Source: Antedon mediterranea
Taxonomy: Eukaryota > Animalia > Echinodermata
Reading direction: 5' to 3'
Length of the DNA: 64,000 nucleotides
Assembly (NCBI RefSeq): GCF_964355755.1
Contig: NC_092679.1
Span: 7,904,201 to 7,968,200, forward strand
Below, one piece after another: positions 1 through 61,233 of the stretch (positions within the stretch are counted from its first letter, which is position 1; the number at the start of each line of letters is the position of its first letter). The notes below the pieces were generated by a model. The model had not been told where the DNA came from and did not search any database. It worked only from the letters and a program-made list of their open reading frames with translations. A program made the position numbers and the translations under genes.

Positions 1-1610
1 TGACAACTTTAAAGGAGTAGGCCTACTCCGTCCGGTCCGAAACGCCTTGCCATAATCTATTGTTACAGGTATAAATTAATTTTACCATCAATCATGAAGC
101 ACGTACCACGTTATTACCTGTAAGAGAAAAGACAATTGGGAAAATGAGAAAATAATTGTAAAATAATCACTGAATTGTGTATAATATAATTGAATTTAAT
201 GTATGATAATGAAAAATTAGTGGCTTAATTTAAAAAAATTACGCATAGGCCTATAACAGATTCTTATTATTGATATCATTATGGACATAATCCTGAGTTG
301 TGGAAATTAGGATATTTTATACGAATATATATTAGGCCTACTGATATACTGTAAATAAGACCTCTTTAGTCCTACTTCACACGTTTACGTAGATCTATCT
401 GATAAGAATTTGTTAATTATTTTATTTTTATCGGCACGTTGATTTCTACCTACCATGCAAACGCATGCAGCAAGTCAGATTTTCCTCCACAATGAATCTT
501 CCGAGAAAGATCTTTTATTTATTTTCGATGCGCTTCCATTCAATTTTAAAATCGCTTTGATGCCTGCCGCCTCAATCCATCAAGAGGAATGGCGGGGGAT
601 ATTTGAACTCCGTGGTATATCTGGCTTAGGCCTAACCCTTTTGCGATTAATTCTTTCTAATAGTTCTGTTGTAGGCTACATTTTCTTTCACGGGCTCGTC
701 GTTTATATTATCAAGTAGACGGTCATTGATGACCGAGTCTACGCATTTATCTCGTATAAAATCGCGTAGAGTTATCAAATTTAAATTGTGTTTATTTGTA
801 TCAATTATGTATGTTTGTTGCTGCTGTACATTGTCTACAAGATGTCCACCACCCAACAACAGGGGAATAAAACATGAAACACTAATATGCTTTCGTGATA
901 CATTAGCACTGTTCGGAAGTACTCATGATTGACTATCAATCCATTTTGTTCCCAAAAATGTGAAAGATATATGCTTTCCCATTAAATTTAATAAATTGAA
1001 TATCACATGGCCATCCCAATTCCCTAACAAAACTATTGTTCATGTTTAAAAGTATTTATTTAATGTGTCTGTAGTTCTAGTTAAATTGCTTTGCATAAAG
1101 CAGCATTGAGAAATATTTAGATTATTATTATAAACAACCACTAAAGTATTTATTCCTGTACAAGGTCAGAAATCAAATTTCCCGCAAACTATTTTATAAA
1201 ATCAGTGACCTATCTAATAGTACATTGATTGGTTAATACCCAGTCAGTGAGGACCTGATTGACAAGCAGTGCCTGTTTGCTATTGGTCATTGGTAAGAGG
1301 AAGTTGAAAATGGACAGCAAGTTATTATTAACACTTGCAGTCTTAAATAAACACGCTGGCATTTTTATTACACCACAGAGTATTATTCCTGTCAACTTAT
1401 ACCACAATTGACATGTTGAGGGGATAGGTCATCCACTGATTCAGTGGATGCCAAACGTAACGCTAAAGTAGCCTGGTCCGTGTAATGAGCATGAATTAAG
1501 GAATAGATACATGGTTCCAGTTAACTATTTTATTAAAAATGTAATAATAGGCTTTCACTGCAAATTTAATTTAATTATTTACTTTATATATAATTATAAT
1601 AATAAACAAA

Positions 1611-2384
1611 TTATGTTGGCGGTGGTGAGTTGTGTTGGAACTTGAACAATGTACTAAATCTAAATCGAATGTCCCTTTCAATAGGTTCACAATCACCAAA
1701 CCTTATAAAATTATAAAATTGTAAAGTTATCTTTAAAACCATTAATGATATGATGATTATTAAAAATTGAAAGAACTTAGTTTGGCTTAACAATCGTTTT
1801 ATAAGACGGTAAATTCTTGATTTTTTTAAAATACTATCGTCAACTGTGAGAGCTGGTTTCATCAAAGAGTCTTTATTTTCACAGTGCGGCGATGTATCAT
1901 CTCTGCAGATGTTCATTTTTGAATCGTTTGTTATGTTATATTCGGATGATTCCGACTTTGTCCGACGGCATAATCCGATACTGTTAACACATGATTGTTT
2001 TTTTGTACGAATATCGTTTTTATCTTTGATATTTAGCTGTTGAGGTTGTTGAGACGACTGTGAAACATCATCTTTTATATATTCATCATCTTTTATTTTT
2101 CGTCTACATTCAAAAACTTCGAAAGAACTTTTATTTGATTGCCGTTTATGTTTCTGATTTATCCTCTCAGTAGTCGTTTGATTTGATGACGTATGTATGG
2201 TCAGTGATGAACCAAACTGATGAGACATGGTTGGAGGAGGTGATTTCTTTACTCTGACACTTCCAAGAGCCGACTTAATCTCGGTTATCAGTTGCTTCAT
2301 TTCGTTGAATTCTTTGTCAATGTATTTTGCACAATTTTGTATTTTATGTACCGCAACAAACCCTGCACCATTTTCTGACTTCAT
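1611..2384 (-). CDS. Small KASH-like tail-anchored protein (257 aa), putative outer-nuclear-membrane LINC component
   Basis: Single coding exon. C-terminus is a basic stretch (KKSRIYRLIKRLL), a hydrophobic segment (FFQFLIIIISLMVLKITLQFYNFI), then 30 aa containing a Cys and ending HNSPPPT-stop. Acceptor tctttatttcaag lies 3 nt before the ATG. Probable non-coding first exon ends at 3162 (donor GAA|gtaagt) in a CpG-richer region near 3160-3260. Confidence 0.75.
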   Translation of the reverse strand: MKSENGAGFVAVHKIQNCAKYIDKEFNEMKQLITEIKSALGSVRVKKSPPPTMSHQFGSSLTIHTSSNQTTTERINQKHKRQSNKSSFEVFECRRKIKDDEYIKDDVSQSSQQPQQLNIKDKNDIRTKKQSCVNSIGLCRRTKSESSEYNITNDSKMNICRDDTSPHCENKDSLMKPALTVDDSILKKSRIYRLIKRLLSQTKFFQFLIIIISLMVLKITLQFYNFIRFGDCEPIERDIRFRFSTLFKFQHNSPPPT

Positions 2385-2689
2385 CGCCTTGAAATAAAGA
2401 CAACCAATAAATCATAATTATAAAAAAAAATGTGCTTAGGCCTACGTGTAGGCCTATTATATTGACCAAATAGACTAGGCCTAGAAGTAGTGCACAACTA
2501 TAGGCCTATACGAAAGAGTAGGCCGTATTGCAAGTCAGTAGTGAGTAGGCCTGGCCCTCAATTATCCGATTGAATCAAAGTCTATGGATATTTAAACGTA
2601 ACGTCAAGAACCACTATTTCAACATTTTAAAAGCTGCAGATCAATCTTTATAATTTAATTCACAGACTTATCAATCATGTTTTAACATG

Positions 2690-2941
2690 TTTCCAATTTG
2701 TAATGTTTATTTTTATATATATTTTGTAATTTTGTGTGTTTGGTAGTAGTTTCCACAATGGAAATAAGTTTAATTAATTTTAAACCTTTTGTGTTATCCT
2801 TGTTATATCCATTTCTTTTGTCTATTATGTAAGTTTATTTGTAACTTGCCGTCTCTTGTTTCATAAAAATTGTATTATATATTTATATATATTATATATG
2901 GATATTTCGAAATAAATAAATCAATCAATCAATCAATCAAT
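2690..2941 (+). mobile_element. Probable 3' end remnant of a CR1/L2-type LINE with (TCAA)n tail
   Basis: T-rich stretch with ggaaataagt...tgtgttatcc, then aataaataaa and a (tcaa)5 microsatellite tail. Boundaries approximate. Confidence 0.4.
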
Positions 2942-3349
2942 ACTAGGCTAGCTTAAGCCTGGTTTTTTAGAGGCCTACAGTACTAAAATTAATAAGCCTA
3001 GGGCCTAGGCCTATAGGGCCTAGGCCTATTATTATTATTTTTCCGTCTGCAGTATGTCCGTTTATTGGCCCTACCAAGCCCTAACATACTCATTGGTCTT
3101 CTGACTACTATACATGAGCACGTTTTTTAAAATTATATGGTGAAAGTAATTATTTACTTACTTCATCAATAAGCACGTGCTGTTTAAAATAGAAAGCCGA
3201 AAAGAGTTTGTAAAACGCCTCGATTTTCTGCGCGCGCGTCTTATTCGAACGAATAGCCCCCTACACGTGCCGCAACAATATCAACCGTACCTATTGACAG
3301 ATTCAACGATTTGACAGGAAAAGGGGTAAAAATAAACGCAAGAAATTGT

Positions 3350-3883
3350 TATAAATCGGTAGAAACGATTACGTTAATCGTTAACGATTTACGCGATCGT
3401 TCATAGTTTCTTGGTTCTCTGCTGGGACACGTGGACGTGAAGTACTACAAAACCAATGCCGGCCGGCCACGCGCAGCCGAGCCCGCGTGTAAATTAAACA
3501 TTATAATATTTAATTGGCTTAATATTATAATTTAATTTGACTTAGGCTTGTTGTTTTGAAATATCAGACCTTAAAAGTGTACAAAAAAAGGTACAAAACA
3601 TCGTCGCGTTGTAAAAATTCAAGAATTGTCGCGTACCTATTTTTTCACAAACTGCAATGATGTAATTTGTGGACCATTTAATTGGTCAGTTTTAACGATC
3701 GTAATCGTTAAAGTTGAACCCAGTTCGATTGAAGATTTTAACGATTTTAACTTTTCAATTTCAACTTAACGATAGTCACATTTTGTCATCAACTTTTTTT
3801 ACTATTTGCTAATAAACGATAATCATCCTTTTTTTTAAACTGTGTTTAAATCGTGGTAAACTGTTTTGTTCAGGTGCCCACTA
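3350..3883. mobile_element. Truncated hAT-like DNA transposon fragment
   Basis: Many dispersed aacgat/atcgtt subterminal-type motifs and a right end ...caggtgcccacta (reverse TAGTGGGCACCTG). The matching left end was not found. Confidence 0.3.
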
Positions 3884-4146
3884 TACATACAAAATAGGTA
3901 TTCCGAAATAGAGAAGAATGCATTTAGTTCATCCTCAAAGTCAGTAGTATGGACGTTATTTTAACTTCATAGTGTCAACTGGTTGTACACAGTTGTGAAA
4001 GAACAATCTCTTGCCAGGGATTGCTAATGCTGTTGATGTGAATCCATACTACTTTAAGATTTCGTTATTATTCAAATCAAACTATAGATAAATAGATAGA
4101 CCTCGTTACATTTTCACTGTAAACACAACCTTCAAATTAACATCTT

Positions 4147-5985
4147 CTATAATGTTGTTGAATTTGATTCATCAAAATGTCTAATGAGTTCTCTGTTTTT
4201 GGTTAACTGTCGGCGAAGGTCCTTTCTTCCTTCCAAAGAAAGGTACCGTACCTCACAGTTTGGCAGCGCTGTCCTTAAAGTGTTCAACACACTTTCAATA
4301 TCCCTGACAGCTGGCAGATCACACAGGAAAATGTATTGCAGTTTGCTGTGTGAAAATGACATATAACATTATTCAAAGAGCATAATAATAATATATCAAT
4401 ATTATCAACTATCATGAAGCAAAAATGGATTAAGTTCGATCCATCGATAGAAGAACTCACCATAGCTTACAGAGTGATGCAATGCCCTTGTCCGATACAT
4501 CTCCACAACTGGTCACTTGAATATCTTCCAAACTATCTTTTAATATTTCTAGTTTGTCCATACTTTCATCTGTGATGTACGTTGCATGGTGCAGTTTCAG
4601 AGATCTCATCTTCTCCAGTCCTCCTGTAAAAATAACAATAACCAATTAGGACTAACTAATACTAATTTTGTAAGTTATAAAGGAAATTGAAAATTATAAA
4701 GACAAAAGACAAAACCATTATGCCAATGAAAAACCATTAATTATCAAACTCTATGTGACAAAAAAATGTTTTGAAAAAGAATTTTTTTCTTACTGAAATG
4801 GTCAAAGCCAATATGCATGATGCTGGAGTCAGTGGCATCAACAGCCTCAATCCGATAGCGATCCTTTGCTCCAGTTGGCAATGAGTTATAATCATCATTC
4901 CATTTCTCATAACCACTGAATTTGACTGCTGCACCACAACGCAGCAACCACTCAGCTGCAGCCCTGTCTGGTCCTACTTCATTTACTCTGTTCTGATCGA
5001 ACCTAGGAAGAAAGAAAAGTTTCAAGTGAGTTTGTCAGCTTTGCTTATCTTTAAAGGAACTGGAAATTAAGTTCTGAACTTAATTAAATCCAATCTTTTG
5101 CATTGTAATGTTTTTTAATTTAAGGGGAAGGCTGCACCCTCCTCCATCATTGTTTCCACCAATGGGAATTCTTATCAAAAGCTCTCTTTGTCAATAGACA
5201 CAAATTTAATTTTAGTTTATCCTTCTATTCCTTAATCCATGCACTAACTCATTTAAAATACAATCTCACTTGTTAAATATGGAGTTGAGCATTCCCCATA
5301 AACACCGTTGTGATGACAACCTAAACAACCCATTACATGATGACAATATTACGTTTGCACCATATTTTGTTGTCATCTATGAAATAAGTAAAACATTATA
5401 TTAGTAGCTATACTAACTGTTGAACAAAATTACAATAGCATGATTACAGTGTATTACTATCTAGGCCTACATTAGTATTTACTAATCTATCCTAAAAAAA
5501 AAATAAATATAGGCATATCATCAACATTTCGCTTTAATAAAAAAACACTTTATTTAAGTATTCAAACTTAAGTTAAACTGATAGTAGTAGTATGTCTAAA
5601 TGATTAGCCTCTACAGCAGCCATTCCATACTACTGAATAAAGTTGTACTACAGTACTAACTAAATATCCAGGCAGGTCAGAAGAGGAAAGAGCATACTAG
5701 CGGATGCTACAGTAGTCAAGCTAGTCGACTTTGATTGGGGGGACTTGACTCGATCCCAGCCAGGCTGACCAGGCGCGCCGAGCCGAGGCCTAGCTAGCCT
5801 AGCCTGGCTAAGGCCTACATACAACATAAATAGGTAACCATACAAGTTAAATTTCATTGCATATAACTAAGTTACCAATTAGGTAATGAATGCAATAATG
5901 CAAACAAATTTCCTACCATAGGCCTAGATACATATTAAATTTAACAAAATAATTCCCTTACAAAAAATCTACTGGATAGCGCCAT
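4147..5985 (-). CDS. DMAC2L: ATP synthase subunit s / factor B (DMAC2L, ATP5S), mitochondrial; 233 aa
   Basis: Exons (minus) 5962-5985, 5270-5376, 4794-5002, 4461-4623, 4147-4345; all GT-AG, 702 nt, in frame. Protein: MALSSRFF-MTTKYG...LWGMLNSIFNKFDQNRVNEVGPDRAAAEWLLRCGA...IEAVDATDSSIMHIGFDHF...SCGDVSDKGI...LCDLPAV, matching factor B motifs including the LRR-like C-half. Confidence 0.95.
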
Positions 5986-13798: not shown

Positions 13799-14139
13799 AC
13801 AGTAATAACCTTGAATATGTAATCCCATTGCCACATGGCAAGTTAGACATCGCCCTCTGGAGGCATTTTTTTTTACAACCAACACCAGATCATTCTTGTC
13901 TAACTAAATACTGTATAACTGAACCAAGGCAATTTAAAGTAAAGGTAGGTTATGCATAAGTACCAAAACAACTTCTTCATGAATTGTCATGCAATGGATT
14001 TGATAACAAAATAAAAGCATAAAATATAAATCTGCAGACCAATTATACTATACACAGACAGCTTATGAAATTGTCCTAATCATAATGTCTCAGGTATTAT
14101 GAAAATAATATTTGTGATTCTTGTTTTATAGGATTCAAC

Positions 14140-15616
14140 ATGAGTTGGACACTCAGCCAGTCATTTTTATCATATTCATCACCTGTGATCAAAACTATTG
14201 AAATGCATACAGGCGGGGAACCCCTGCGTGTTATAATTTCAGGATATCCTAAAATCCATGGAGATACAATTCTACAAAAAAGACGGTATGCGAAAAACAA
14301 TCTGGATCATTTGCGAAAGATGCTTATGTTTGAGCCTCGAGGTCACAATGATATGTATGGTGCAGTACTTGTAGATACTGATCTTCCAGGAGCCGACATA
14401 GCAGTGCTATTCATGCATAATGGGGGATACAGTACTATGTGTGGACATGCTATAATAGCACTTGGCCGCTTAGTTGTAGATAAAAAGTATGTAACAGCAA
14501 CAGAGCCTGAAACTGAAGTCAACATTCAATGTCCTTGCGGACTGGTCAAAACCGTAGTTGAGTACAAGGATGGCAAGTCAGGATATGTCCGATTTCATAG
14601 TGTTCCAGCATTTCTATTTGCTTCAAGTAAGCTATCTCAGGACTATAGGTCTTCATGATTCATCTGGTCCCTCCATGAAAAGATCTTTCTCGCAATGCTG
14701 GTTGAATAGAAACTGAGGAATTAAGTACCTAGATCTGTCCAATAAGCCTACATTATGCAAACTCTCCACAAAGTAGCTTAACATATTAAAGATCATACTC
14801 TATTATGAAAATAATGTACATCGTTATATTTTTCAAAATATTTCCATTTTTAGATGTCGAGATAAAAGTTAAAGGCTACGGAATGATGACGGTAGACATC
14901 AGTTATGGTGGCGCTTTCTATGCCTTCATAAGTGCTGACGTTTTAGGATTAGATGTCAGAAGGTCAAGTACGAGTGACCTAAAAAAAACAGCTACTGCAG
15001 TATCTGATGCTGTTAAAGAGCAAGTGAAGATTCTCCATCCTGGAGATGATGACTTAAGTTTTCTCTATGGTACTATTCTAACAGATGGTCAAGACAATTG
15101 GTCAGCGGACCCAACAGCCAATGTCTGTGTGTTTGCAGATGCTCAGGTAACCATACTTAGTACTCGTAGGAGGTACTTAAACTGAAGTTTTCCCTTTTTT
15201 GTTGTTCTGCTTAAAAGTCTACTTCTAGACTTATTGTGACCACCATCCACATTTATAAATATTAAATAATAATTAAAAATTATTTGTGGAAATTAATAAG
15301 CAACAAGTAATTAATATGGTTGAAATATTTAAAACCATATTTTTAATTTCAGGTTGATAGATCTCCAACAGGGTCTGGTGTTACTGCAAGAATTGCACTA
15401 CAACATGCTAAAGGCTTTATACAAATCGGCCAGAAACGAATATTTGAAAGTGGCGTAACTAAAAGTTTGTTTTCAGGAACTGCTATCAAGCAAGTAAAAT
15501 GTAATGATTTTGATGCCGTTGTTGTGGAGGTGTCAGGTCAGGGACATTATACCGGAGAGGCGAGTTTTATTCTTGAGGAAGGGGACATTGTTGGTGAAGG
15601 ATTTCTACCAAACTAA
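14140..15616 (+). CDS. L3HYPDH: Trans-L-3-hydroxyproline dehydratase (proline racemase family), 347 aa
   Basis: Exons 14140-14626, 14854-15146, 15353-15616; 1044 nt in frame. Motifs: EMHTGGEPLR, LMFEPRGHNDMYGA, STMCGH (catalytic Cys), DISYGGAFY, VDRSPTGSG. Thr in place of the second Cys is diagnostic of the dehydratase rather than the racemase. Confidence 0.96.
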
Positions 15617-16628: not shown

Positions 16629-19600
16629 ATGAAACATATATTAGAAATAAATGACCGTGAAGCATTGAGGTATGTTATTTCCAGAGAGCTGAAGAATTAT
16701 GGATTGAAAGTTCCTAAAGAAAAGAAATCGAGCAGCAATAATTGCGTGTGTAAAGTTCACACGCAAGAGGTAAGGCCAACCAATATTTGTCGCTCGACGC
16801 TGATAAAAATAAGTCGGATGTTGCTGGGCTAGAGCCTAGCCTAGCTAAGTTGATAAATTGTCTTGCGCTTGGGAGAGAGCCACCATCTAGCCTTATGCAA
16901 CATTTTATCAGTCTGATTATTATCACAAGGAATGTAATCCTTGTTTTGTCCCTTGCTTGAAGAACTAACATTAACAAAACTAACTTAACTGCTCAAGTTG
17001 AGTGGGACTGAACTGAGAGTGTTCATCGAGGCTAGGCTGTTATGCGCGATTTGAACGATTTGCGCAATTTGAAATTGCGCAAAAAAAATCCTTGCGCAAT
17101 TTGAATTGAAACATGTGTTTCAAATTGCGCAAGCAACGTATTAAATTGCGCAAGTAATCTGCAAATTGCGCAAGGTTTTTCGACAGATTGTGAAATCATG
17201 CACATCCATATTTTTATAGTAATTTCTAAGAATGATTCAAAATTAAAGATAAATATCGCATTTCCTTATTTTAGTAGTGCAAATATTGTTATAAGTTAGC
17301 ATACCGTCGAAGAACCGACGAAGGAAAACGAAGCGGTGGTGTTCCACCAGGCGGGCGCGGGCGGCCGGCTATACTACTCTAGCCTAGCTAGGGTCTGGAC
17401 TACTGATACTGACTAGGTTACATGGCCTAGCTTAAACTAATATTAAAAACTTAATTTTTACATTTATTTTGATTTATTTCAAGTTACAGTGATAATATTA
17501 TTTAATTGTAATAATAAATGTTATGTATTTATTATACACATGTTATCTTCGCATTTATTATGTTTTATTTTGAGTTATTTAGTTTCCAATAAATTATTAT
17601 AATACCGATTGTCTGGTAGAATTTTGTTGCGCAATTTGAAAATTTACAGGTTGTTTTCAAATTGCGCAAAGGTGTCATATTGCGCAAGAACTATCTTGCG
17701 CAATTTACAAATTGTGCAGCGCAATTTAAAATTGCGCAAAGATTTTCTTGCGCAATTTGAAATTGCGCAAGTTGATTGCGCAATTTCAAATTGCGCAAAA
17801 AAATCCTTGCGCAATTTTAAATTGCGCAAGAATTCTTTGCGCAATTTCAAATTGCGCAAGGATTTTTTTGCGCAATTTCAAATTGCGCAAATCGTTCAAA
17901 TCGCGCATAACATAGGCTACTCTTCTTGTAAATTAATTTAATTCTTATTTACAGGAGTTGTGCACATTTGGTTGCCCATTGGGCTGTCTTCCATCAATTT
18001 CAGTTGATGATGCATCTGCTCACACCGTCCCAAGGTAATGCACTTGTCAATTGTATGACCCACTATATGACCCCTGGGAGAGGTGCGTCATGGGTGCGTC
18101 ATTTACAAATAATTACTGACGCAGGTGTGCGTCAAAAAACCTAGATGGTACGTCACATCAATGAACAAGGTGTGTCAATGTCCGTCACTTTACCACCCAC
18201 CATATCATAAACAACATGGTCACAGTGCGTCAAAATGGGTGCGTCATGGTCACCTAAAGGTAAGTCACCTTTTTGACGCACGGGTGCGTCATGGTATTCA
18301 AAAGTATGACGCACATCGGAAAAATGACGCACCTCTCCCGGGGGTCGTATACTGGGTCATACAATTGACAAGTGCATAAGAACATGATGATATGTATTAA
18401 GTGAGATTATTGGTGTTATGGTTCAGTGATTTTGTTTGATTTTTTGATAATGGAATAGCCCATGGGGGATGGGAACCCTGCTGGACACCCAAGCCTAGAG
18501 AGCTGTATCCAAGGAGACATCTTTCTCTTTGGCCTGCGTGACTGGCAGGGAGAGGTGTGTTCTCCTTGCTAATAAAGCAAATAATAAATGCTAGAATTTG
18601 TAATTAAAACTGCTATAAACTGAGCCTGTTTTGCTTGCCTGTTTTGCTTGCCTGTTTATATTCCAATAAATGTTTGTTGTGAGATCAAATCAAGACGATT
18701 TACCTGGTACAGTATCATTATTGTTGCACGTGTCAACCGCAATCCCACACAAGTTAGGGAGGCCGGAGCCTTTTACATTGGAAAACATTTTAACGTTTAT
18801 ATTCTTGCGTGTTGGAGATTATTTTTAATGTTATCTTAAAATAATATGATAGTGTCATTGTATTATTTTTCTCTTTTAGATACTTAGTTGAATGTGTTGA
18901 GTTTCTTAAATTACATTTGAATTTAGAGGGTTTATTTCGTAAACCAGGATCAAGAGTAAGGCAAAAGGAACTAAAGGTAGGTTTTAAAAATGAGAAGAAA
19001 AAATTTAAAATATAAACCTGTCGTACTTAAAACTTGATGGCATGGTCATCTTGTCCGTGACTGTAAAGGCTCAATGTTTACTAGTGGAAGTACAGTTGGC
19101 CTAGGAGTGAGTGTAGTTATAAACTGAATTTAAAGAGATTGCACCTTTTCTACCTCTTGAATTCTTCAAATATCATAATTTCCACTTAACAGTTCAATTA
19201 TTTTCAGAATAATAATACATAAAAATGTGTTTACCATTAATCGCGGAGTTGAATCGTGGCAATAACAAGGTCAGAGTCAACTCTCGGTAACCCTAGTTTA
19301 AGACAATGTCATGAACACTGACCTGCATTATACTTTGTTTTTGTAGAAGCATATCAAATTAACCAATTGATTTAATTCAATATTTCTTTGTAGCAAATTA
19401 TCCTTAATACTGGGTCAGTTCCTCAAGATTCACATTGTGCTGATGTTGCAAGTCTTCTGAAGGAGTTCTTTAGAGAACTTCCAGATCCTCTCTTTACCCA
19501 CAAGCTCCAGGAAACCTTCCTGAAATGTGGCCAGCTGGAAGAGGAATGGAAGCAGAAGAATGCCATCCTTCTGTTGGTGACTATTCTACCAGAAAGTCAT

Positions 19601-22600
19601 TTCCATACTTTACTTTATCTTATGAGCTTCTTAAACGACGTAGCAGCACATTCTGAAAATAACAAGATGAATGTTAGAAATATTGCGTTAGTTCTTACTC
19701 CAAATTTAATCGGTCTTAATGAGAAGCAAGAGAAGAGCTCAACATTGTCGGAGAAGATCTTAAGAATCTTTATGTCTGTGATCGCCCTTCTCATTCAGCA
19801 AGCTAATCGGATTGGCTTTGTTTCTGAGACTCTTGCAGAGAAAATTAATAACTGTGCTAATAAATCGTGGAGCGCAGTTGATGGTGGGTTGACGTCTGAA
19901 GATGATTTGGATTGCAGTGCAGAGGCAATTCTTGATGCAGAGAAAGTAATAAAAAAGAAAAGGAGAAGAAGTGGCTCACTACAAGGTATTCATATTATTT
20001 CACTCTATTTATTATTTTATTCACAACATAGAATCAACTTTGCACATTTCTATTTGGTATTCTTAAACCGACGCCGAGAGAGGTGCAATTGCAATTGAAA
20101 AAAATAATTATGCACTTGTCAATTGTATGACCAACTATACGACCCCCGGGAGAGGTGCGTCATTTGTCCTATGTCTGTCGTACCTTATGAATACCATGAC
20201 GCACCCGTGCATAAAAAATGTGACTTGCCTTTAGGTCACCATGATACACCTATTTTTACGCATTGTGACCATGTTGTTTATGATATGGTGTGTGGTAAAG
20301 TGTGGGACACACCATTGTTCATTGATGTGACGTACCATCTAGGTTTTTTTACGCATCTCTGCATCAGTAATTATTTGTAAATGTAATTACTTTATAAATG
20401 ATGTTTATTTTCATTTTATAATTTGTTTCATGTTTTCATTTATTATATTTAGCACCATAAGAATTGTTGCTGGTACACTAAAACAGTATGTTCAGACCAA
20501 CAGTGTGAAGCATGTTAATCTATTGTGGAAAATACACCCATGTTTATATGGGGAGGGGTCCTCAATTTTCCCCCAGAATAAATGATGATACTAGGTCAAG
20601 ATATGATCCTTTTGCTTTGCAAATAAACGTTTTCACCTCAGAACCACATCCAGAGCAGAATGTATGCATAAAGCTGTTGGTCTGAATATCCTATTTGCAC
20701 TTGTTGTCACAATTCATATTGCAGAAGCTGTGAACAGTCTTGGAACACTTCTAGCATCTCCATTTGTCACTAGTAATCATTATAACATAGGTATGACATC
20801 ACACATTGTCACTAACCATTATCCATATACCCTGCATCACTAATGTTTAATCATATCAGGTATTAGATGATCAGTAGAATTTTTACTACTAGACTACAGA
20901 ATAAATGTATATTTCATAAGAACTTTATACTGTATGTGTTATGTATGGAACAGCCTTACAATTACACACACAAAAAAAAATACTATTTAAAAGTTAATAT
21001 CCAGTTTTGTGTAACAGTAAAATCATCTAATATTTTGGCATTATGGCTGGGCAGTTCCAGTATTAATTTCTTTCCATTATATTAAACTGAATTCATATTA
21101 ATTATAAACATGAATCTCTACTATTGTAGTTCTTACTCCTTCACGTAATCATCAAGGAGTTTATGAAACACCCAAGATAATGAGATCAAAGCGTAAGGCA
21201 AGTGAAGATAGTGGTGCATTTACTTCTGCTAAAAGGTGGGCTCTTGTTTCTTTTGAATTCTGAAATATTTTAGCTTTTAACAAATAATTTGATCTATGAA
21301 GAGTCTAGTATAAATGAGTTCTATTTTCAACAGGAAAGCTTTATTAAAGCAATTGCCAGCTGATCAGAGGTTTAGTAAGCATAGAGCTTGTGTTGACACG
21401 ATTCAAACCACACCAGGAGGATATGAAGGACCCCCTCTAGGTGAAGTTGGTAAGTAAACTGAACACTACAGCATATTATCCGTAATTGCACATGTTTAAA
21501 TATAGATCCAAACAAGTTGGCGCCCTCTATAATCACAATGATATTCCCTAAAAACAGACAGACATTTAATTAAAGAAAGTGTTTTTTTGGGCACCAAATT
21601 TATTTGGAAAATGTTCAATTGCATCTTAAGCACCTGCTAAGATACATCAATGATATTTTCCAGATATTGTCATTTTTCTTTTGATGCTTAGATGACATCT
21701 CTAGATTTGTGAGAGATTACTGTACCAGGCAGTGGTTGTCCATAAACTGCACAAAAAAAATGTGTAGGATTTGCCATACTTAAATAAAGACTAACTAGAT
21801 TTGAATTTAACTACATAGAAGGAATGATTATTAATTATAATTAATTCAATTGATTGTTTTAATTAAACAATATCTTCAACAACGTCTTTTATACAGTAAC
21901 CATATATGCATTTAAGCTTGTCTGTATATTTAGCATGAGTGAAAATAGCTTTCACTGTGTCACAATTGGCATTCTCCTTCATTTGCAAAATCCATAAAAT
22001 CTAACAAAACAATTCCTCTTCAGACTTATGAACTTTTTTTTTAATTTGAAAAGGTCAACATATTTAAACAATTAAATAAATGTTGTGTAAAATAAAAAAT
22101 AACAGTCAACTAAACCGTTTACAATGCCAATACCGTCAACTTAGCTTATTGAACGATTTTGATCAATGCTATGCTGTTTGTACAATTGTTGTGTAATGCA
22201 GTCTACTGTAGACTAACGCCCGTATTCTTAAACCGGACTTTAGTCGTAGTTCGAGCTAAAACTAAAAAAATGACGTCATTTTAATTCATAAACCAAACTT
22301 CAACTAAATCACCGACTAAATCAGGCCAACCTCGACTAAATCGAGACGGATTTTGATCGATTTTTTTAGTCCTGGAGGGGGCAGGCTAAATGGTCGACTA
22401 AATGGTTTTTAAACGATGTTTATAAAAAACGTAACAGTCATTGAGTTGTTATATTGGCCAGATATTGAAGAATGAAATATCTATATTTATATTACCGTAG
22501 CTTAATTAAATATACATTAGTATAAGTTATAATAATGAAAATCAACTTTATTTACAACTGTATACAAATTACATTATTTTCTTCGCGCAAGTCCGACTTG

Positions 22601-25600
22601 AGCTACGTCACGCCATAGCGACAATGGGAGATGCGGCAATTCACCACGCGATGGAATGTTTAGGGGGCCTAGCGCTTTCTTGTCAAGCTATGAAGTGCGT
22701 GGTTCGTCGCGATCATACTTTGTTGGGGGCCTAGAAAATATAAAAGTTACCGTACCGCCATGGTTCCTAAATATATTTTGAAGATTTTATTTGTTGTTAA
22801 TCAAATATACTTCACTGTTAAATTAATACTGATATTGTTCTAATAATTAACGATTAAAATTATTTTTCATGTATATAGTCCTGATGCGTAAAAAGTGTTG
22901 TAAGAAATGGAAAGTGATATCAATGCGCAAAATTTTGTCTGCTCCTCAAATACTCTCTTGTCATTGGCCAATGTATAGCCTTTGTTACCCAGACGTGTGC
23001 AACTCGACTAAAAGCTCGACTTCATTTAGTCGAACTGCAAACTTCGACTACTTCGTTTTTTAATCGAATTTGAAGTAATAGCTCGAACTACGACTTTTTC
23101 AAGTCGAACTTCGAACTACACCTAAAGTCCGGTTTAAGAATACGGGCGTAAGCCTAATAAATAGCATTTTCATGTTACGATGCGTTGCGCGATAGCCTTA
23201 CTCGTCACAGTGACAAGTTAAAATCTAGTATAGTCTTATTTTGCAATTGTTCAAATTTGTTTGGAATTGGAACACAGGGTACTGTATGTAAAACTGCAAT
23301 TTAAATATGAATTTATTTTTTATTTGACATATTCTTCTTTTTAGTTTCACAATTTTATGTAGTGCTAGAATAGTAGGCCAAATACTAACCCATTCTTTAG
23401 TTCAATAGGTTGTGTCGTCGCGATGTAATATACAGTTTTTGATTAGGATAGCATTTGTCAAGACAAGAGTGCTGTTATTTGTAACGCAGACTCATTATAA
23501 TCAACAGGTTTCCATTGTTTAACACACAGTCCTTCAGAGTATTTCCACAAGGCTTTTATGTCTCTTGTGGACTCTAGTTAGATATTATTTACGCCATCAT
23601 AATCACATCTTCAATTACATAGGCCCTGAGATATGAAAGCATCTCTTTGTTTTAAAGAGTGAACTACTTATTACAGTAAGTGTGCCTCTTACCTTTTAAA
23701 ATTTACCATAAATTTGTTCTTGGGTTTCTATTTCTGTGCTTAGTGTCAATATAAGGTCAACACTAAATGTTGGAGTCATTTTCATGTAAAATATTTAATA
23801 TGCACACACCACTACTACATTTGTTTGTCTTGTGTGGGATCGTCCCCCTTTTTATTTTATTTTATTTTTAAAACTTTTATTATAATACTCTGTTAAAAAT
23901 ATATACACCACTACTACTCGGGTAAATGTTAAAGGGAGATCCTCATAGTCTACTCAGAACAGTATTCTGGTCGTTGGAAAGTCAACCATCGTAACCACCA
24001 AACTAAATCCTATTAATTTCCAAGGTTTATGAATCATATTTGTAAACAATATATTGGTTGGTGAGATAGCCTTGGCAAAATATACTTTCACTTTATATAG
24101 AACAGATAATGATAATCTTGTCTCTTTTTGTCTGAATATAATATTTATTATTTGAATAAACTGTCTTAGGGCCTGTTTCTGCTGCAACTGCTCAAAATAC
24201 GTTATAAAATACGGTATTTTTTATACCGTATTTTTTAGTACCCCGTTTCTGCTAACAATACTTCTTGGGTGGTCGTGTTAAATTTCATCCTTTTTACCCA
24301 AATTTCCAATCATTTATTATTCCTTTATTAAAGTCGTAATAAAGGAAGTTTAAGTTCAAAGCCTAGCCCTAGTGATAGAGATGTTGTGAGAGCACAGAAA
24401 ACATCGTAATGGGGACAAGTAATTCGTTGCCTCCCCGAGTTATTGTCTTTTGCAATGTTGTACTGCTTTCGCAGGCTCTTCAGCTTTGAATTTCCTTGCT
24501 TTGGAGACAAGTCTTTTCCGTACTCCTGCTTTACTTTTTTAGAAATGTCTTTATAAATGTGGTTGTCCCTTTTATTACCTTTTAGTTTGCCGGACATTTT
24601 AGCTCACCCCCTCCTTCCCCACCCCTGCTTCCCCACACAGATTTAAATAGTAAATACTGTGACGTCTTTGCTCCACATTTTTGCCAAATATATCTATACA
24701 CGTGTGTAAAACAGCTGACAGCGACAGAAAATAAAAACACGATGTTGACCTCATGTCGCAGGTTAAAAAAAATACGGTATTTTTTATTGGCAGCAGAAAA
24801 GGGTACAAAAAATACGGTATAAATTTGTAAATGCCGTATTTTATCCACAAATTTTGTGGGAAAAATACGGTATACAAAATACAATATTTTTTTATGAGCG
24901 CAGTTTCTGCTGCCAAAAAAATACGGTATATATACGGTATTCAAAAAATACCGTATAAAATACGGTATTTTCTTGGCAGCAGAAACAGGGCCTTACAGTA
25001 TTTAATTTATCTTGCAATACAGTAGCAACATTCTCTGTTATCCTTATCAAGTCAATAATAATCATTTTACAAAATGTTACTATTTATTGCAGCATTTGAG
25101 TCAGTTCCTCTACAGAGAATGTTGAACTGTTTCACACGGTGTCCACATATACACTCATGAATAGACTATACAATAGCTATGTTTGTTGAATGTCATCAAA
25201 GTTGTACAGGCATTTGAAAACATTTTCAGAATTAATAATGTTGTTTTCTATTTGGATGTTGTGTCATCTTAATAGAAACTTAAGTATCGTACTGTATGAC
25301 TTTATGAGTGAATCTTAAATATGTAAATCTACTTAAGAACATGGGATTAAAGTCAATAAAACTTAATAGCACATTTGCGCAGGTGTAGAGAGCTTGAGTA
25401 AATTCACCGTTAATCATGTGTTGAAGACTATATCTTTTAGAGTAAAAATGACTTTCTTCTTCAGGGGTCTTTATGCCACAGGAAGTCTATAATCTACTCT
25501 TTCGTTGAGTACCGTATGCTTCGCAGTCTGTCTAGCAAATGAGCTTACCATCTTTGAGTTCAAGACCCTTAAAGATGTATTGTCCCTTGAAACACAAAAA

Positions 25601-58600: not shown

Positions 58601-61233
58601 TCCTGATGTGTAATTCTATTTTATTGTTTGAACTTAAATTTGGCCTTGTCCTCTTTACATTGAATATGATGTATAAATGCAATAATAATAATATGTTATA
58701 GGTTGATTTTCATTTCTGTTCAGAAATAGAACTGTTTACCGTACATTCATTTGTCCTTGTCGCCAAAAATAAATTTCACTTCATTTACAAATGTGTTTCT
58801 ATTCCCACAGTCATCTCCGTATCAATAGTTTCAATATCTTTGTATTTGTCATTGTATCTTGCCTTATGATATTGTTTCTTACTCATAATTCCGGTGTTAT
58901 TATTTTATACTGTGATTTAATATCATTGTATTTGTGTTTGTATCTTGCAGGCTACACCAGTCCCTGATCGATTAGCTCCTGGTGAATCGATTGGCTGGAG
59001 ACTTGCAAATCGACCCCCTAAAAAAGGGCTTGGTACTTTAAAAGTAGTTGATGATGCCCTAGCTGGGCAAACTAAGCGTTCACATCAGAAATCATCAAGT
59101 TCTCCTGCAAAGGTACTTACTAGTAACAAGATGTACACAAAAAGCTCTTTTGGATCTGGCCCTGCTGTCACCATACAAGATATACATTATGGGAAGGTTG
59201 CTACACCTCAAAAAGACAATACAAAATCACCAAAAGTAATGCTTGTCGATGTACAAATGTCTTGGAAAGGACCTGTTCGTAATGTTAACCAAGAGACTGT
59301 TGCAAATAATAACAATAATCAGGTCGATCAGCCGGCTCCGTCAATGCCAACTGCTGTTGTTCATGTTGGTAGGAAATATGATTCTAGCCTTAAGAGACAG
59401 GGACCTGTCACACCAAACACAGCCAACAAGTATAGAGGCAACAGCGTTAGAATGCATTGTAACCACTTAGCTTCACCGGAGAGTTCGCCGGAATTTGCTC
59501 CACCTAGTCCACCTAATCCAGTTGTACAGCATTCAGAACATGCTAATCCAGCACCAGTCATGCATCATTCAGCGAGTCAAAAATCTCTATCAAGTGTTTT
59601 ATCAAACATCAGTGTCACAAGCACTAAATCTGTATTCAGTGTAGAATGTAATTATAATAATGTAGATGAAGAACACAGACCTTCAAGTGTAATACCTCCA
59701 CCAATAATGTTTTCTAATGAAAATAATGCAACTACTACTGTTGGTTATTATAGAGGAGACTGTACCAACAAACAGGCTTCCATCAATCAGAATCACACTA
59801 ATGTACATAAAGCCTACAATGCCCAGATGTACAGTGGCACTAAGTCCATAACCAATTCAAATACCTATGGTAACACTCAAGATTACATTGATACACACAG
59901 TATTCAATATGGTGGTGAAGACAAAAAACTAGGTGATGGGACAACTAGTAAAACTTCAAGTCTTGATAGTTTAGACACTTTAGGAAGTGAAGAAGAATTA
60001 AAAGCACATCAGAAACTTAAAAAATCCACGTCAGTAGATAGCGGTCGAGGAGCATCATTGTACGATAGTGAAGGAATGTACAAGATCGAGGATATTGCAA
60101 TAATGATCAAAAATCTTGAGCAAACGAATGAGGAAAATGAGACCAGTAATAAAGTAAATTATGCACCAAGTTATGCAGTAAATATGAATACCAAGTCACA
60201 AACATTGAGTAAACATGTTGTACAACCGCCACACTCTTGTGAAGGATCAAAACTGGTTCAAGAAGGTAACTCTAAAAGTAAAGTACCCAGTGCATTTTAT
60301 AACTCGCTTCCCAGAGGAATGAATTCAACAAGAACAGAGGGGTTTAATAACAGATCTCAATGGCAGTATAGTTCATGTACTCTTCCGAGTAGACGTGTTA
60401 AAAGATCACAAACGTGTCCTGATGGTATCGGTTCACTTGATGCTAGACGACTTAGTAACAGTGTTGTTGAAGCTAATGTAGAGTTCAGTTCAACAGAGGA
60501 CAACAGTCCATTAAAGATGTTAAATAGGACACCACTTAGGTTTTCTTCTAGAGGACGTCGTCCATCATTACCATCCCAACCTTCTGAACCAATGGAACCA
60601 TTTCAGAGGTCAGAACGATTTTTACGGAAAAGTTTTTCAGCAGGTTCTGGAGTGCGATCACCAAAGTTTCCCTTGACTTCGCTAGTGAAGTCGATAAGCT
60701 CTGAAAGCGGTTTGTCAAGAGTGGACACACAAGAGCCATTTGATGATGACGACGATGAAGAAGACGATTCTGATGAGGAAGAAGACATCTTTAAATCAAG
60801 GATACCAAAGAACCACTTCAAGCAAAGACCACGCTTCAGCCAGACACACGAGCCGAGATTCCAAAAGCTAACACCATGCCAGGAAGCTGATGATGAAGAA
60901 GTAACTCGAAAGTATCATCGTCCAGCTCCACTGGTTGAAAACTGCTCTGATAATGTACTTGAAGAAGTACAAGTTATAAAACAAGTTTCCTTACCTCTTC
61001 ACCTCGCAAAGTCAACCAAAGTGCGTGGGCACGGTAAGAAAACGGTTACACACAAATATGGCACACCAACAAAGTCTAAGCGATTTGGCTTTCTAAGTAA
61101 ATCAAAAGAAGATGGGAACAGTACCCCCAAACATATTGGGAAATCCCCTAAAAGGTACCCACGGTCCCCAGTTAATCCTCTTAATAACCCTTCAGGTGAT
61201 CTAAGTAGTGCTGTTTTTACTGGAGAGTTCTAA
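16629..61233 (+). CDS. ARHGAP11A: Rho GTPase-activating protein 11A-like, about 1264 aa
   Basis: Exons 16629-16769, 17955-18034, 18880-18976, 19394-19985, 20725-20790, 21130-21235, 21334-21449, 37343-37538, 55964-56081, 58951-61233; 3795 nt in frame, GT-AG. RhoGAP domain (EGLFRKPG arginine finger, DVASLLKEFFRELPDP, NKMNVRNIALVLTPNL), KKKRRRSGS, later IGWRLA and MSWKGP motifs, long S/P-rich tail. Extra small exons in the large introns cannot be excluded. Confidence 0.88.
17038..17912. mobile_element. Non-autonomous TIR element, Ginger-like
   Basis: TGTTATGCGCGATTTGAACG...CGTTCAAATCGCGCATAACA, 5-bp TSD TAGGC on both sides, dense subterminal arrays of the palindrome ttgcgcaa. Confidence 0.8.
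18039..18376. mobile_element. MITE with TAA TSD (PIF/Harbinger-like)
   Basis: About 50-bp TIR tgcacttgtcaattgtatgaccc...; TAA at 18036-18038 and 18377-18379; internal tgcgtca repeats. Confidence 0.85.
20111..20383. mobile_element. Truncated, oppositely oriented copy of the 18039-18376 MITE
   Basis: Same TIR at 20111 and the reverse complement of the internal sequence; second TIR missing. Confidence 0.8.
22217..23148. mobile_element. Non-autonomous Harbinger-like element
   Basis: TIR cgcccgtattcttaaaccggactttag / ctaaagtccggtttaagaatacgggcg with TAA TSD on both sides. Confidence 0.88.
24169..24992 (-). mobile_element. Harbinger deletion derivative retaining a Myb/SANT-like ORF fragment
   Basis: TIR gggcctgtttctgctgc / gcagcagaaacagggcc, TTA TSD, subterminal aaatacggta repeats. 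ORF 24328-24597 (RDNHIYKDISKKVKQEYG...KQGNSKLKSLRKQYNIAKDNNSGRQRITCPHYD) resembles the trihelix Myb/SANT protein of Harbinger. Confidence 0.85.
25573..25848. mobile_element. Internally deleted Kolobok-like MITE
   Basis: ttaa|agatgtattgtccc ... gggacaatgcatct; homologous to 32317-32825. Confidence 0.75.
26000..26147. mobile_element. Small MITE, same family as 10218-10348
   Basis: gctctgtctacactatcaaac ... gtgtagacagagc, with the internal sequence inverted relative to the first copy. Confidence 0.7.
28450..28570 (+). mobile_element. Degenerate tRNA-SINE fragment
   Basis: Duplicated B-box-like ccagggttcaatcc; no complete cloverleaf. Confidence 0.3.
30229..30892. mobile_element. GC-rich non-autonomous TIR element (Harbinger-like)
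   Basis: Imperfect TIR gggcctgttcgtaggggttgaaaat / attttaaccaccgtacgaacacgacc, 3-bp TSD CAA, sharp GC/CpG contrast with the flanks. Confidence 0.65.
32317..32825. mobile_element. Kolobok-like MITE
   Basis: TTAA|AGATGTATTGTCCCTT ... AAGGGACAATACATCT|TTAA. Confidence 0.85.
38804..39097 (+). repeat. Local tandem duplication, unit about 134 bp, about 2.2 copies
   Basis: tgtaaattgctgca...actaatgaaagtaattggttacatttttctgcagcctctttatacagttcttta occurs at about 38804 and 38938. Confidence 0.85.
43480..44900 (+). mobile_element. Non-autonomous Helitron/Helentron-like element (HINE/DINE-like)
   Basis: 5' (ttta)n tract, CpG-rich core with acgcgcg/tgcgca motifs, 3' hairpin aattcgtca-tag-tgacgaatt followed by aaatCTAG|ttt. 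5' boundary approximate. Confidence 0.65.
45440..46396. mobile_element. Nested non-autonomous element, possibly Zisupton-like
   Basis: Interrupts the satellite unit at an A-run; AAAAAAAG on both sides; short imperfect ends tagacttgccccaagtctg / cgtctggagcccagactac. Confidence 0.55.
47029..48039 (+). mobile_element. Nested Kolobok-like element with decayed THAP-like coding remnant
   Basis: TTAA|AGGAAAGGAACA ... TGTTCCTTTCCT|TTAA. Peptide PSCFKRDLVGELTGKPSKRRLLVDDAVSTLF (about 47435-47530) resembles the THAP C-terminal AVPTIF box region. Confidence 0.8.
49368..49907. mobile_element. Nested short relative of the outer MULE-like element
   Basis: gagtattgctaaacaccgcaaacc ... ggtttgcggtgtttagcaataccc, flanked by GGTTTGCG on both sides; internally inverted and duplicated arms. 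Confidence 0.75.
50018..52032. mobile_element. Nested 2.0-kb non-autonomous TIR element with 7-bp TSD (hAT/hATw-like)
   Basis: CTATATA|TAGGTATCCCAATGAAA ... TTTCATTGGGATACCTA|CTATATA; the empty site is visible in the duplicate copy at about 53596-53610. Confidence 0.85.
52964..53492. mobile_element. Second copy of the 49368-49907 element, produced by segmental duplication
   Basis: Near-identical sequence and identical flanks, offset 3596 bp. Confidence 0.8.
53976..54907. mobile_element. Nested Tc1/mariner (pogo/Tigger-like) MITE
   Basis: TA|CCGTATTTTCCGGAGTATAGGTCGA ... TCGACCTATACTCCGGAAAATACGG|TA, with subterminal tataagtcgacccc repeats. Confidence 0.9.
55153..55320. mobile_element. Old small MITE overlapping the right TSD of the foldback element
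   Basis: cttggttcccacta ... agtgtgaaccaagc; a related decayed copy lies near 40460-40555. Confidence 0.45.

What the first reader, a model, noticed from the sequence alone, without database searches (positions are those of the whole stretch)
1611..3260. Miniature, unassigned KASH-domain protein: a candidate new LINC-complex adaptor
Seen: basic patch, single TM segment, exactly 30 further residues with one Cys, ending HNSPPPT. Established: KASH proteins (nesprins, KASH5, LRMP/Jaw1) have a tail anchor, a luminal peptide of 30 aa or less and a terminal PPPX that binds SUN proteins; HNSPPPT recalls the HNGPPPV end of LRMP. Unusual: only 257 aa in one coding exon, with no spectrin repeat, calponin-homology or EF-hand domain. 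It has only a short amphipathic N-terminal helix (YIDKEFNEMKQLITEIKSAL) and a disordered basic/polar middle. The Cys is at -25 rather than the nesprin -23. The upstream exon has no in-frame ATG and DMAC2L ends 1.8 kb upstream, so this is unlikely to be the last exon of a giant nesprin. Inference: a lineage-specific, possibly germline or cell-type-specific, SUN-binding protein or natural dominant-negative LINC modulator.
Basis: partly seen in the sequence, partly recalled or inferred. Interest (0 to 1): 0.8.

Follow-up and report, generated by a model that had tools for sequence, protein, structure and literature searches.

The report
Orphan miniature nuclear-envelope hook protein
This animal DNA holds an intact 257-codon reading frame with no detectable relative, whose membrane anchor and tail are built like the hook (KASH) that ties outer nuclear-membrane proteins to their inner partners, so it likely encodes a small lineage-specific nuclear-envelope linker, though its expression, start point and binding are untested.

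Summary
The ORF is real: 2384-1611(-), 257 aa, far longer than chance, with a splice acceptor, a polyA signal and the only PPPx-stop ending among 6459 frames. It meets the published rule for candidate animal KASH proteins (TM, 9-40 aa tail, PPPT). The tail fits SUN-contact positions in a shifted nesprin register or in the KASH6 register. The N-terminal helix is a clean four-heptad coiled-coil pattern. No homologue or Pfam match was found, including the Pfam KASH model. A strong in-frame donor inside DMAC2L's last exon (4252) could splice onto this exon. No RNA evidence and no SUN-binding model were obtained. Best reading: a small lineage-specific KASH protein, a known kind (KDP-1 is a precedent). 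Unreviewed scan notes report KASH candidates in other genomes, but none like this sequence.

The parts
1611..2384 (-). 257-aa ORF plus stop, in one exon whose first base is 2387
2265..2351 (-). Residues 12-40: four-heptad coiled-coil pattern (V12 I15 A19 I22 F26 M29 I33 I36 L40)
   Evidence: 9 of 9 a/d positions hydrophobic, reached by 35 of 20000 shuffles; helix 5-41 in a single-sequence AF2 model
2229..2243 (-). Internal SPPPT (residues 48-52), the same five residues as the C terminus; the Pro run is length-polymorphic in frame
   Evidence: 6-nt insertion behind 2232 in one contig of run X3
1845..2234 (-). Polar, probably disordered stem (residues 51-180)
   Evidence: pLDDT below 50 with no secondary structure in a model built without an alignment; composition
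1779..1838 (-). Basic helix before the membrane (residues 183-202)
1704..1775 (-). Predicted single TM segment (residues 204 to 217-227), moderate hydrophobicity, with Lys218
   Evidence: Kyte-Doolittle maximum 2.09; GES sums 27-34
1611..1703 (-). KASH-like tail (residues 228-257): Cys-25, Ile-18, Phe-10, Phe-8, His-6, PPPT, stop
   Evidence: rules
1529..1534 (-). AATAAA polyadenylation signal about 80 nt after the stop
3162..3260 (-). Candidate upstream exon: strong donor, 33 stop-free codons in frame, no in-frame ATG; alternatively an 18-nt micro-exon 3179-3162
   Evidence: donor at the 99.2 percentile of minus-strand GT sites; acceptors 3260 and 3179 at 96-97; open by chance with p about 0.08
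3201..3800 (.). CpG-rich stretch, candidate promoter and 5' UTR
   Evidence: CpG o/e 2.5, 1.25 and 2.22 in three 200-nt bins, against 0-0.58 over 4001-5600
4147..5985 (-). DMAC2L/ATP5S (mitochondrial factor B), upstream neighbour on the same strand; strong phase-0 donor at 4252 inside its last coding exon
   Evidence: PDB 3dze matches E 8e-29 and 5e-4; exon chain; donor; the first exon at 5985 is inferred
1..1487 (.). Repetitive element that begins just past the polyA signal
   Evidence: contig depth about 14 times that over the ORF in X2 and X3, with loose ends at 1488-1490

Best explanation
The locus holds an intact 257-codon frame that likely encodes a small, fast-evolving KASH protein, predicted to be tail-anchored in the outer nuclear membrane/ER and to dock its terminal PPPT into the pocket of SUN trimers. 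Inferred steps: it is transcribed from the CpG-rich stretch at 3200-3800, with a non-coding first exon spliced to 2387. The protein is inserted after translation with a 30-40 aa tail in the perinuclear space. PPPT enters the SUN pocket, Phe-8/Phe-10 (or His-6/Phe-8) pair with the KASH lid, and Cys-25 may reach the SUN cysteine. On the cytoplasmic side a disordered stem of about 140 aa carries a four-heptad coiled coil that would oligomerise the protein and bind one partner. It would occupy SUN sites in a restricted cell type, as a minimal linker or as a competitor of the large KASH proteins. It likely arose by duplication of the 3' end of a nesprin- or LRMP-type gene followed by rapid divergence.
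For: Shown: ORF length beyond chance; unique PPPx end; acceptor, donor and polyA signal; frame-keeping allele in X3, and no differences over 2127-2567 in X1 from another study, at low depth; heptad pattern; DORY rule met; tail positions match published SUN contacts in two registers; layout coil-stem-TM-tail as in mouse Jaw1, whose stem is residues 334-469; no nesprin, KASH5 or LRMP domains upstream in the window. Rough inference: a PPP end has chance 4e-5 to 2e-4 per protein, and tail anchors are a small share of proteins, so well under one chance case is expected per genome.
Against: No homologue among 1.84 billion representatives or in two word searches, so conservation of PPPT, which the DORY authors used to reject false positives, cannot be checked. 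No Pfam KASH or MRVI1 match. No Tyr/Phe at -7 and no Pro at -11. TM GES sum 31.6-32.3 for 20-21 residues, close to the 31.7 of the KASH5 L535Q variant that goes to mitochondria and below wild-type 38.6 (that paper's window length was not seen and my scale is recalled, so this is rough). The same SPPPT occurs internally, where it cannot serve as a terminus. The acceptor at 2387 scores 2.0, weaker than an out-of-frame acceptor at 2505 (6.0). Codon statistics do not separate the ORF from non-coding DNA (6% of background windows score as high) and GC1 is low, 0.37 against 0.43-0.58.
Confidence: 0.47

Rival explanations
1. The exon is the last exon of a longer protein. The N terminus comes from the 33-codon exon or the 18-nt micro-exon plus unseen exons, or from DMAC2L through the donor at 4252. 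The tail is still KASH-like, but the protein is not 257 aa.
For: The donor at 3162, the acceptors at 3260, 3179 and 2387, and the DMAC2L donor at 4252 are all in phase 0 with the ORF, and all three DMAC2L joins stay open to the PPPT stop. The 4252 donor (99.6 percentile) lies where similarity to bovine factor B ends. No AATAAA between 4160 and 3200, only ATTAAA at 3682, 3536 and 3514.
Against: DMAC2L has its own complete frame and stop at 4147. A mitochondrial presequence and a KASH tail pull in opposite directions (general knowledge). A CpG-rich promoter-like stretch lies between the two genes. The 33-codon frame is open by chance with p about 0.08. No nesprin-type domains in 167 upstream frames, though shorter exons and exons beyond 64000 were not examined.
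Confidence: 0.2
2. An ordinary tail-anchored orphan protein of the ER, mitochondrial outer membrane or peroxisome, whose PPPT end is coincidence and does not bind SUN.
For: Moderate TM with Lys218 and a tail of net charge +1 to +2, which favour mitochondrial or peroxisomal targeting (PMC8115505). A second SPPPT internally, and a slippage allele in it. No profile match to KASH.
Against: TM, tail length, PPPT, alternating hydrophobics at -8/-10 and a single Cys at -25 all occur together. The joint chance is low (inference).
Confidence: 0.2
3. A detached duplicate of the 3' exon of a KASH gene that is weakly expressed or silent and is drifting.
For: Low GC1, no CpG depletion (o/e 1.17 against 0.39-0.62 in neighbouring exons) and no codon signal. 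It sits against a repeat.
Against: 266 codons without a stop or frameshift. No similar protein in the databases, so it is not a recent copy of a conserved gene, although the organism's own parent gene could not be searched because no genome is held.
Confidence: 0.1

Closest known systems
LRMP/Jaw1/IRAG2 (KASH6)
   Same: Order coiled coil, stem of about 135-160 aa, single TM, luminal tail. His at -6, where other human KASH peptides have Tyr (PMC10827754). The human end NGPPPV can be read from a primer in PMC3787381.
   Different: Coil pattern of 29 aa against 140 aa in mouse Jaw1; no N-terminal disordered region; has a luminal Cys, which LRMP lacks; no MRVI1 match.
Nesprin-1/2, ANC-1 long KASH domains
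   Same: Tail of about 30 aa with one Cys. Hydrophobic residues at -8, -10 and -18 match -7, -9 and -17 after a one-residue shift.
   Different: No spectrin repeats or CH domain; Cys at -25 rather than -23; no Pro at -11; no Pfam KASH match.
C. elegans KDP-1 and other lineage-specific KASH proteins (amphioxus and filarial DORY candidates)
   Same: Lineage-restricted KASH protein with no known cytoskeletal partner (PMC4050730, PMC4284225). That KDP-1 is small is recalled, not from a call.
   Different: No sequence relationship found. KDP-1 function is shown genetically (PMC3777164); nothing is shown here.
KASH5/CCDC155 and zebrafish Fue
   Same: Tail anchor with a degenerate KASH end.
   Different: No EF-hand and no coiled coil of about 190 aa, so it cannot be a dynein-activating adaptor of this type on its own.

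Membership tests
KASH proteins (class) | Single TM near the C terminus | tested here: met
   predicted only, moderate hydrophobicity with Lys218
KASH proteins (class) | Luminal tail of 9-40 aa | tested here: met
   30-40 aa depending on the TM end; rule
KASH proteins (class) | Terminal [PATHQL]PP[QTVFILM] directly before the stop | tested here: met
   PPPT-stop
KASH proteins (class) | Aromatic or His anchor at -7/-6 and a hydrophobic residue two places upstream | tested here: inconclusive
   Gln at -7; fits with His-6/Phe-8 (KASH6 register) or Phe-8/Phe-10 (four-residue loop, where 2-3 are described)
KASH proteins (class) | Motif conserved in homologues | not testable with these tools
   no homologue found; no genome held
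KASH proteins (class) | SUN binding and SUN-dependent outer-nuclear-membrane localisation | not tested
   needs the bench; no complex model was obtained
Nesprin family | Spectrin repeats / CH domain | tested here: not met
Nesprin family | Pfam KASH profile match; Cys at -23; Pro at -11 (nesprin-1/2) | tested here: not met
   no match (HMMER filters drop most weak hits); Cys-25 and Leu-11
LRMP/IRAG (MRVI1) family | MRVI1 coiled-coil domain of about 140 aa | tested here: not met
   no Pfam match for the ORF, its pieces or the upstream exon, each scanned alone; the two exons were not scanned joined
KASH5/Fue family | EF-hand plus long coiled coil | tested here: not met

The most novel reading that the evidence does not exclude
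Read-through splicing from the phase-0 donor at 4252 joins the mitochondrial factor-B (DMAC2L) protein, with its presequence, to the coiled coil, stem and KASH tail. This gives one protein with a mitochondrial targeting signal at one end and a SUN-binding nuclear-envelope anchor at the other: a candidate mitochondrion-to-nucleus tether made by alternative splicing of a housekeeping gene.
Probability: 0.05. Interest if true: 0.85.

Novelty: new member of a known kind. Interest (0 to 1): 0.44.

Why it matters
KASH proteins evolve fast, and new ones are usually missed by homology searches. My nine literature searches (listings only) showed no description of a KASH protein from an echinoderm. A KASH protein with almost no cytoplasmic domain would test whether animals use natural SUN-site competitors to loosen nucleus-cytoskeleton coupling. 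The kind is known, and nothing here is yet shown to be expressed or to bind SUN, which limits the present interest.

Tried and rejected
Homology: word search at similar lengths, 0 of 114 candidates at E<=10. Tail region against longer proteins, 0 of 7. phmmer over 1.84 billion representatives, 0 at E<=0.001. Exact look-up, 0 of 2. ESM Atlas, whole protein and tail, no usable hit. PDB sequences: one irrelevant designed-protein hit at E 7.9, then none. Foldseek on a low-confidence model, no match. Shorter proteins were not searched. Pfam: nothing relevant. Rfam over 1-2800: none. No paralogue in the window by tblastn. Expression: no RNA holder listed. Run X1, guessed to be RNA, has a contig that runs from the exon straight into the intron and so holds the stretch as DNA. 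Reads were laid on 1-2800 only, so junctions at 3162 and 4252 remain untested. SUN-KASH model: I gathered animal SUN domains, including a starfish protein (P0015), but the prediction queue was full and no job ran, so there is no verdict. Two scans for reference nesprin tails found nothing. The codon-usage test was uninformative, and one of its 7 training exons was out of frame. Rejected: in-frame splicing from DMAC2L's internal donors 4794 and 4461, which are phase 1 and 2 (read); a transposon ORF, since contig depth over the ORF equals that of the adjacent intron. The supplements of PMC4050730 gave no hit for the amphioxus candidate, and file 1 could not be searched, so that protein was not compared.

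Full report
Observation. The minus strand holds a stop-free frame at 1611-2411. From the ATG at 2384 it gives 257 aa ending HNSPPPT-stop. In 30 simulated 64-kb sequences with the window's trinucleotide statistics the longest frame was 110-156 codons, and this is the only one of 6459 frames of 4 codons or more that ends PPPx. An acceptor lies just before 2387, three bases ahead of the ATG, and AATAAA lies at 1534, about 80 nt after the stop. In DNA runs the contig depth over the ORF equals that of the adjacent intron (50.6 and 49.5 in X2), while contigs over 328-1487 are about 14 times deeper, so a repeat begins just past the gene's 3' end (depth is not a copy number). One contig of X3 has a 6-nt in-frame insertion in an internal proline run. 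X1, from another study, matches 2127-2567 without differences at depth 4.4.

Anatomy. A single-sequence AlphaFold model (mean pLDDT 49.5, low) gives a helix at 5-41, no structure at 51-180, and helices at 183-199, 202-229 and 233-248. Residues 12-40 have hydrophobic residues at 9 of 9 heptad a/d positions, reached by 35 of 20000 shuffles, so a short coiled coil is likely. The hydrophobic segment starts at 204. Its best GES windows end between 217 and 227, leaving 30-40 residues, and it contains Lys218 and two Gln. The 20-21 residue sums (31.6-32.3) are near the 31.7 of a KASH5 variant that is mistargeted to mitochondria, against 38.6 for wild type (PMC8115505, passages). The comparison is rough, but it counts against secure nuclear-envelope targeting.

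The tail against published rules. It meets the DORY definition: TM, 9-40 aa, terminal [PATHQL]PP[QTVFILM] (PMC4050730, passages). Those authors also required the motif in most homologues, which cannot be checked here. Nesprin structures use Tyr-7, Leu-9, a hydrophobic residue at -17 and Cys-23 (PMC6527376, passages). This tail has Phe-8, Phe-10, Ile-18 and Cys-25, a fit after a shift of one to two residues. Loops of two or three residues between the anchor and PPPX are described (10.1101/2020.06.19.161265, parts 1-2 of 4 read); this register needs four. The other register uses His-6 and Phe-8, like KASH6, whose H549 replaces the usual Tyr (PMC10827754, passages). Pfam gave no KASH or MRVI1 match for the whole protein or for any piece.

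Gene structure. The upstream neighbour is DMAC2L/ATP5S, with its own stop at 4147. All 167 minus-strand frames of 46 aa or more upstream of 2950 were scanned (149, 17, 1); none matched spectrin, CH, EF-hand or MRVI1 families. Shorter frames and DNA beyond the window were not examined. A CpG-rich stretch at 3201-3800 contrasts with the CpG-poor DMAC2L body and looks like a separate promoter (inference). The strong donor at 3162 can close either a 99-nt exon with 33 open codons and no in-frame ATG (chance about 0.08) or an 18-nt micro-exon. No AATAAA lies between 4160 and 3200. An out-of-frame acceptor at 2505 also scores higher than 2387 in my approximate splice model. The 5' end is therefore unsettled.

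Relatives. None were found by word search, phmmer, ESM Atlas, PDB sequence or fold search. I did not test how well close relatives of this organism are represented in those databases. The ORF has low GC1 (0.37) and no CpG depletion (1.17) compared with seven neighbouring exon frames (0.43-0.58; 0.39-0.62), as expected of a young, fast-evolving or tissue-restricted gene (inference).

Mechanism. Most likely (0.47) this is a stand-alone small KASH protein: tail-anchored in the outer nuclear membrane, PPPT in the SUN pocket, a flexible stem, and a short coil for self-association and one partner. The order of parts matches the C-terminal part of mouse Jaw1 (coil 194-333, stem 334-469, TM; oligomerises through the coil; PMC7804115, passages). 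Loss of 5' exons after duplication has been proposed for the origin of vertebrate Lrmp. Shown: the frame, the signals and the motif positions. Inferred: expression, start site, targeting, SUN binding, oligomerisation, role and origin. Rivals: last exon of a longer or chimeric protein (0.2), non-KASH tail-anchored orphan (0.2), drifting duplicate (0.1). No SUN-KASH model could be run because the queue was full.

Comparison and novelty. It works like a KASH protein by design and passes the sequence-level class tests, but fails the defining-domain tests for the nesprin, LRMP/IRAG and KASH5 families. Lineage-restricted KASH proteins are known: KDP-1 in nematodes, and amphioxus and filarial candidates (PMC4284225, PMC3777164 and PMC9140367, passages). 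Literature searches (listings only) showed no echinoderm KASH protein and no DMAC2L fusion; the library lacks most subscription papers. Verdict: a credible new member of a known kind, unproven; interest 0.44.

Noticed in passing
window 2229-2260 (-): The internal SPPPT is preceded by Val, Arg, Val at the -7, -8, -9 positions, a KASH-like register, but it is not terminal and has no TM before it. Possibly a relic of an internal duplication, or chance.
   Followed up: partly
window 4147-4252 (-): DMAC2L runs about 30 residues past the end of its match to bovine factor B, and the extension starts at a strong splice donor.
   Followed up: partly
window 2505 (-): Strong acceptor, out of frame with the ORF. 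Its use would put an overlapping upstream frame ahead of the ATG.
   Followed up: partly
window 1-1487: High-depth repeat with internal deletion variants (joints 740-1460 and 1007-1144) and no Pfam or Rfam match; probably a non-autonomous element.
   Followed up: partly
window 14086-15613 (+): Three exon frames matching proline racemase (PF05544), likely L3HYPDH.
   Followed up: no
window 18845-20095 (+): RhoGAP domain exons (PF00620).
   Followed up: no
window 24331-24603 (-): Myb/SANT-like DNA-binding fragment (PF13837, E 1e-10), probably transposon-derived.
   Followed up: no
window 58921-61233 (+): 770-codon, Ser/Pro-rich open exon with no Pfam match.
   Followed up: no
window 3364-3401: Imperfect palindrome inside the CpG-rich candidate promoter, with related AACGAT motifs at 3686-3765.
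   Followed up: no
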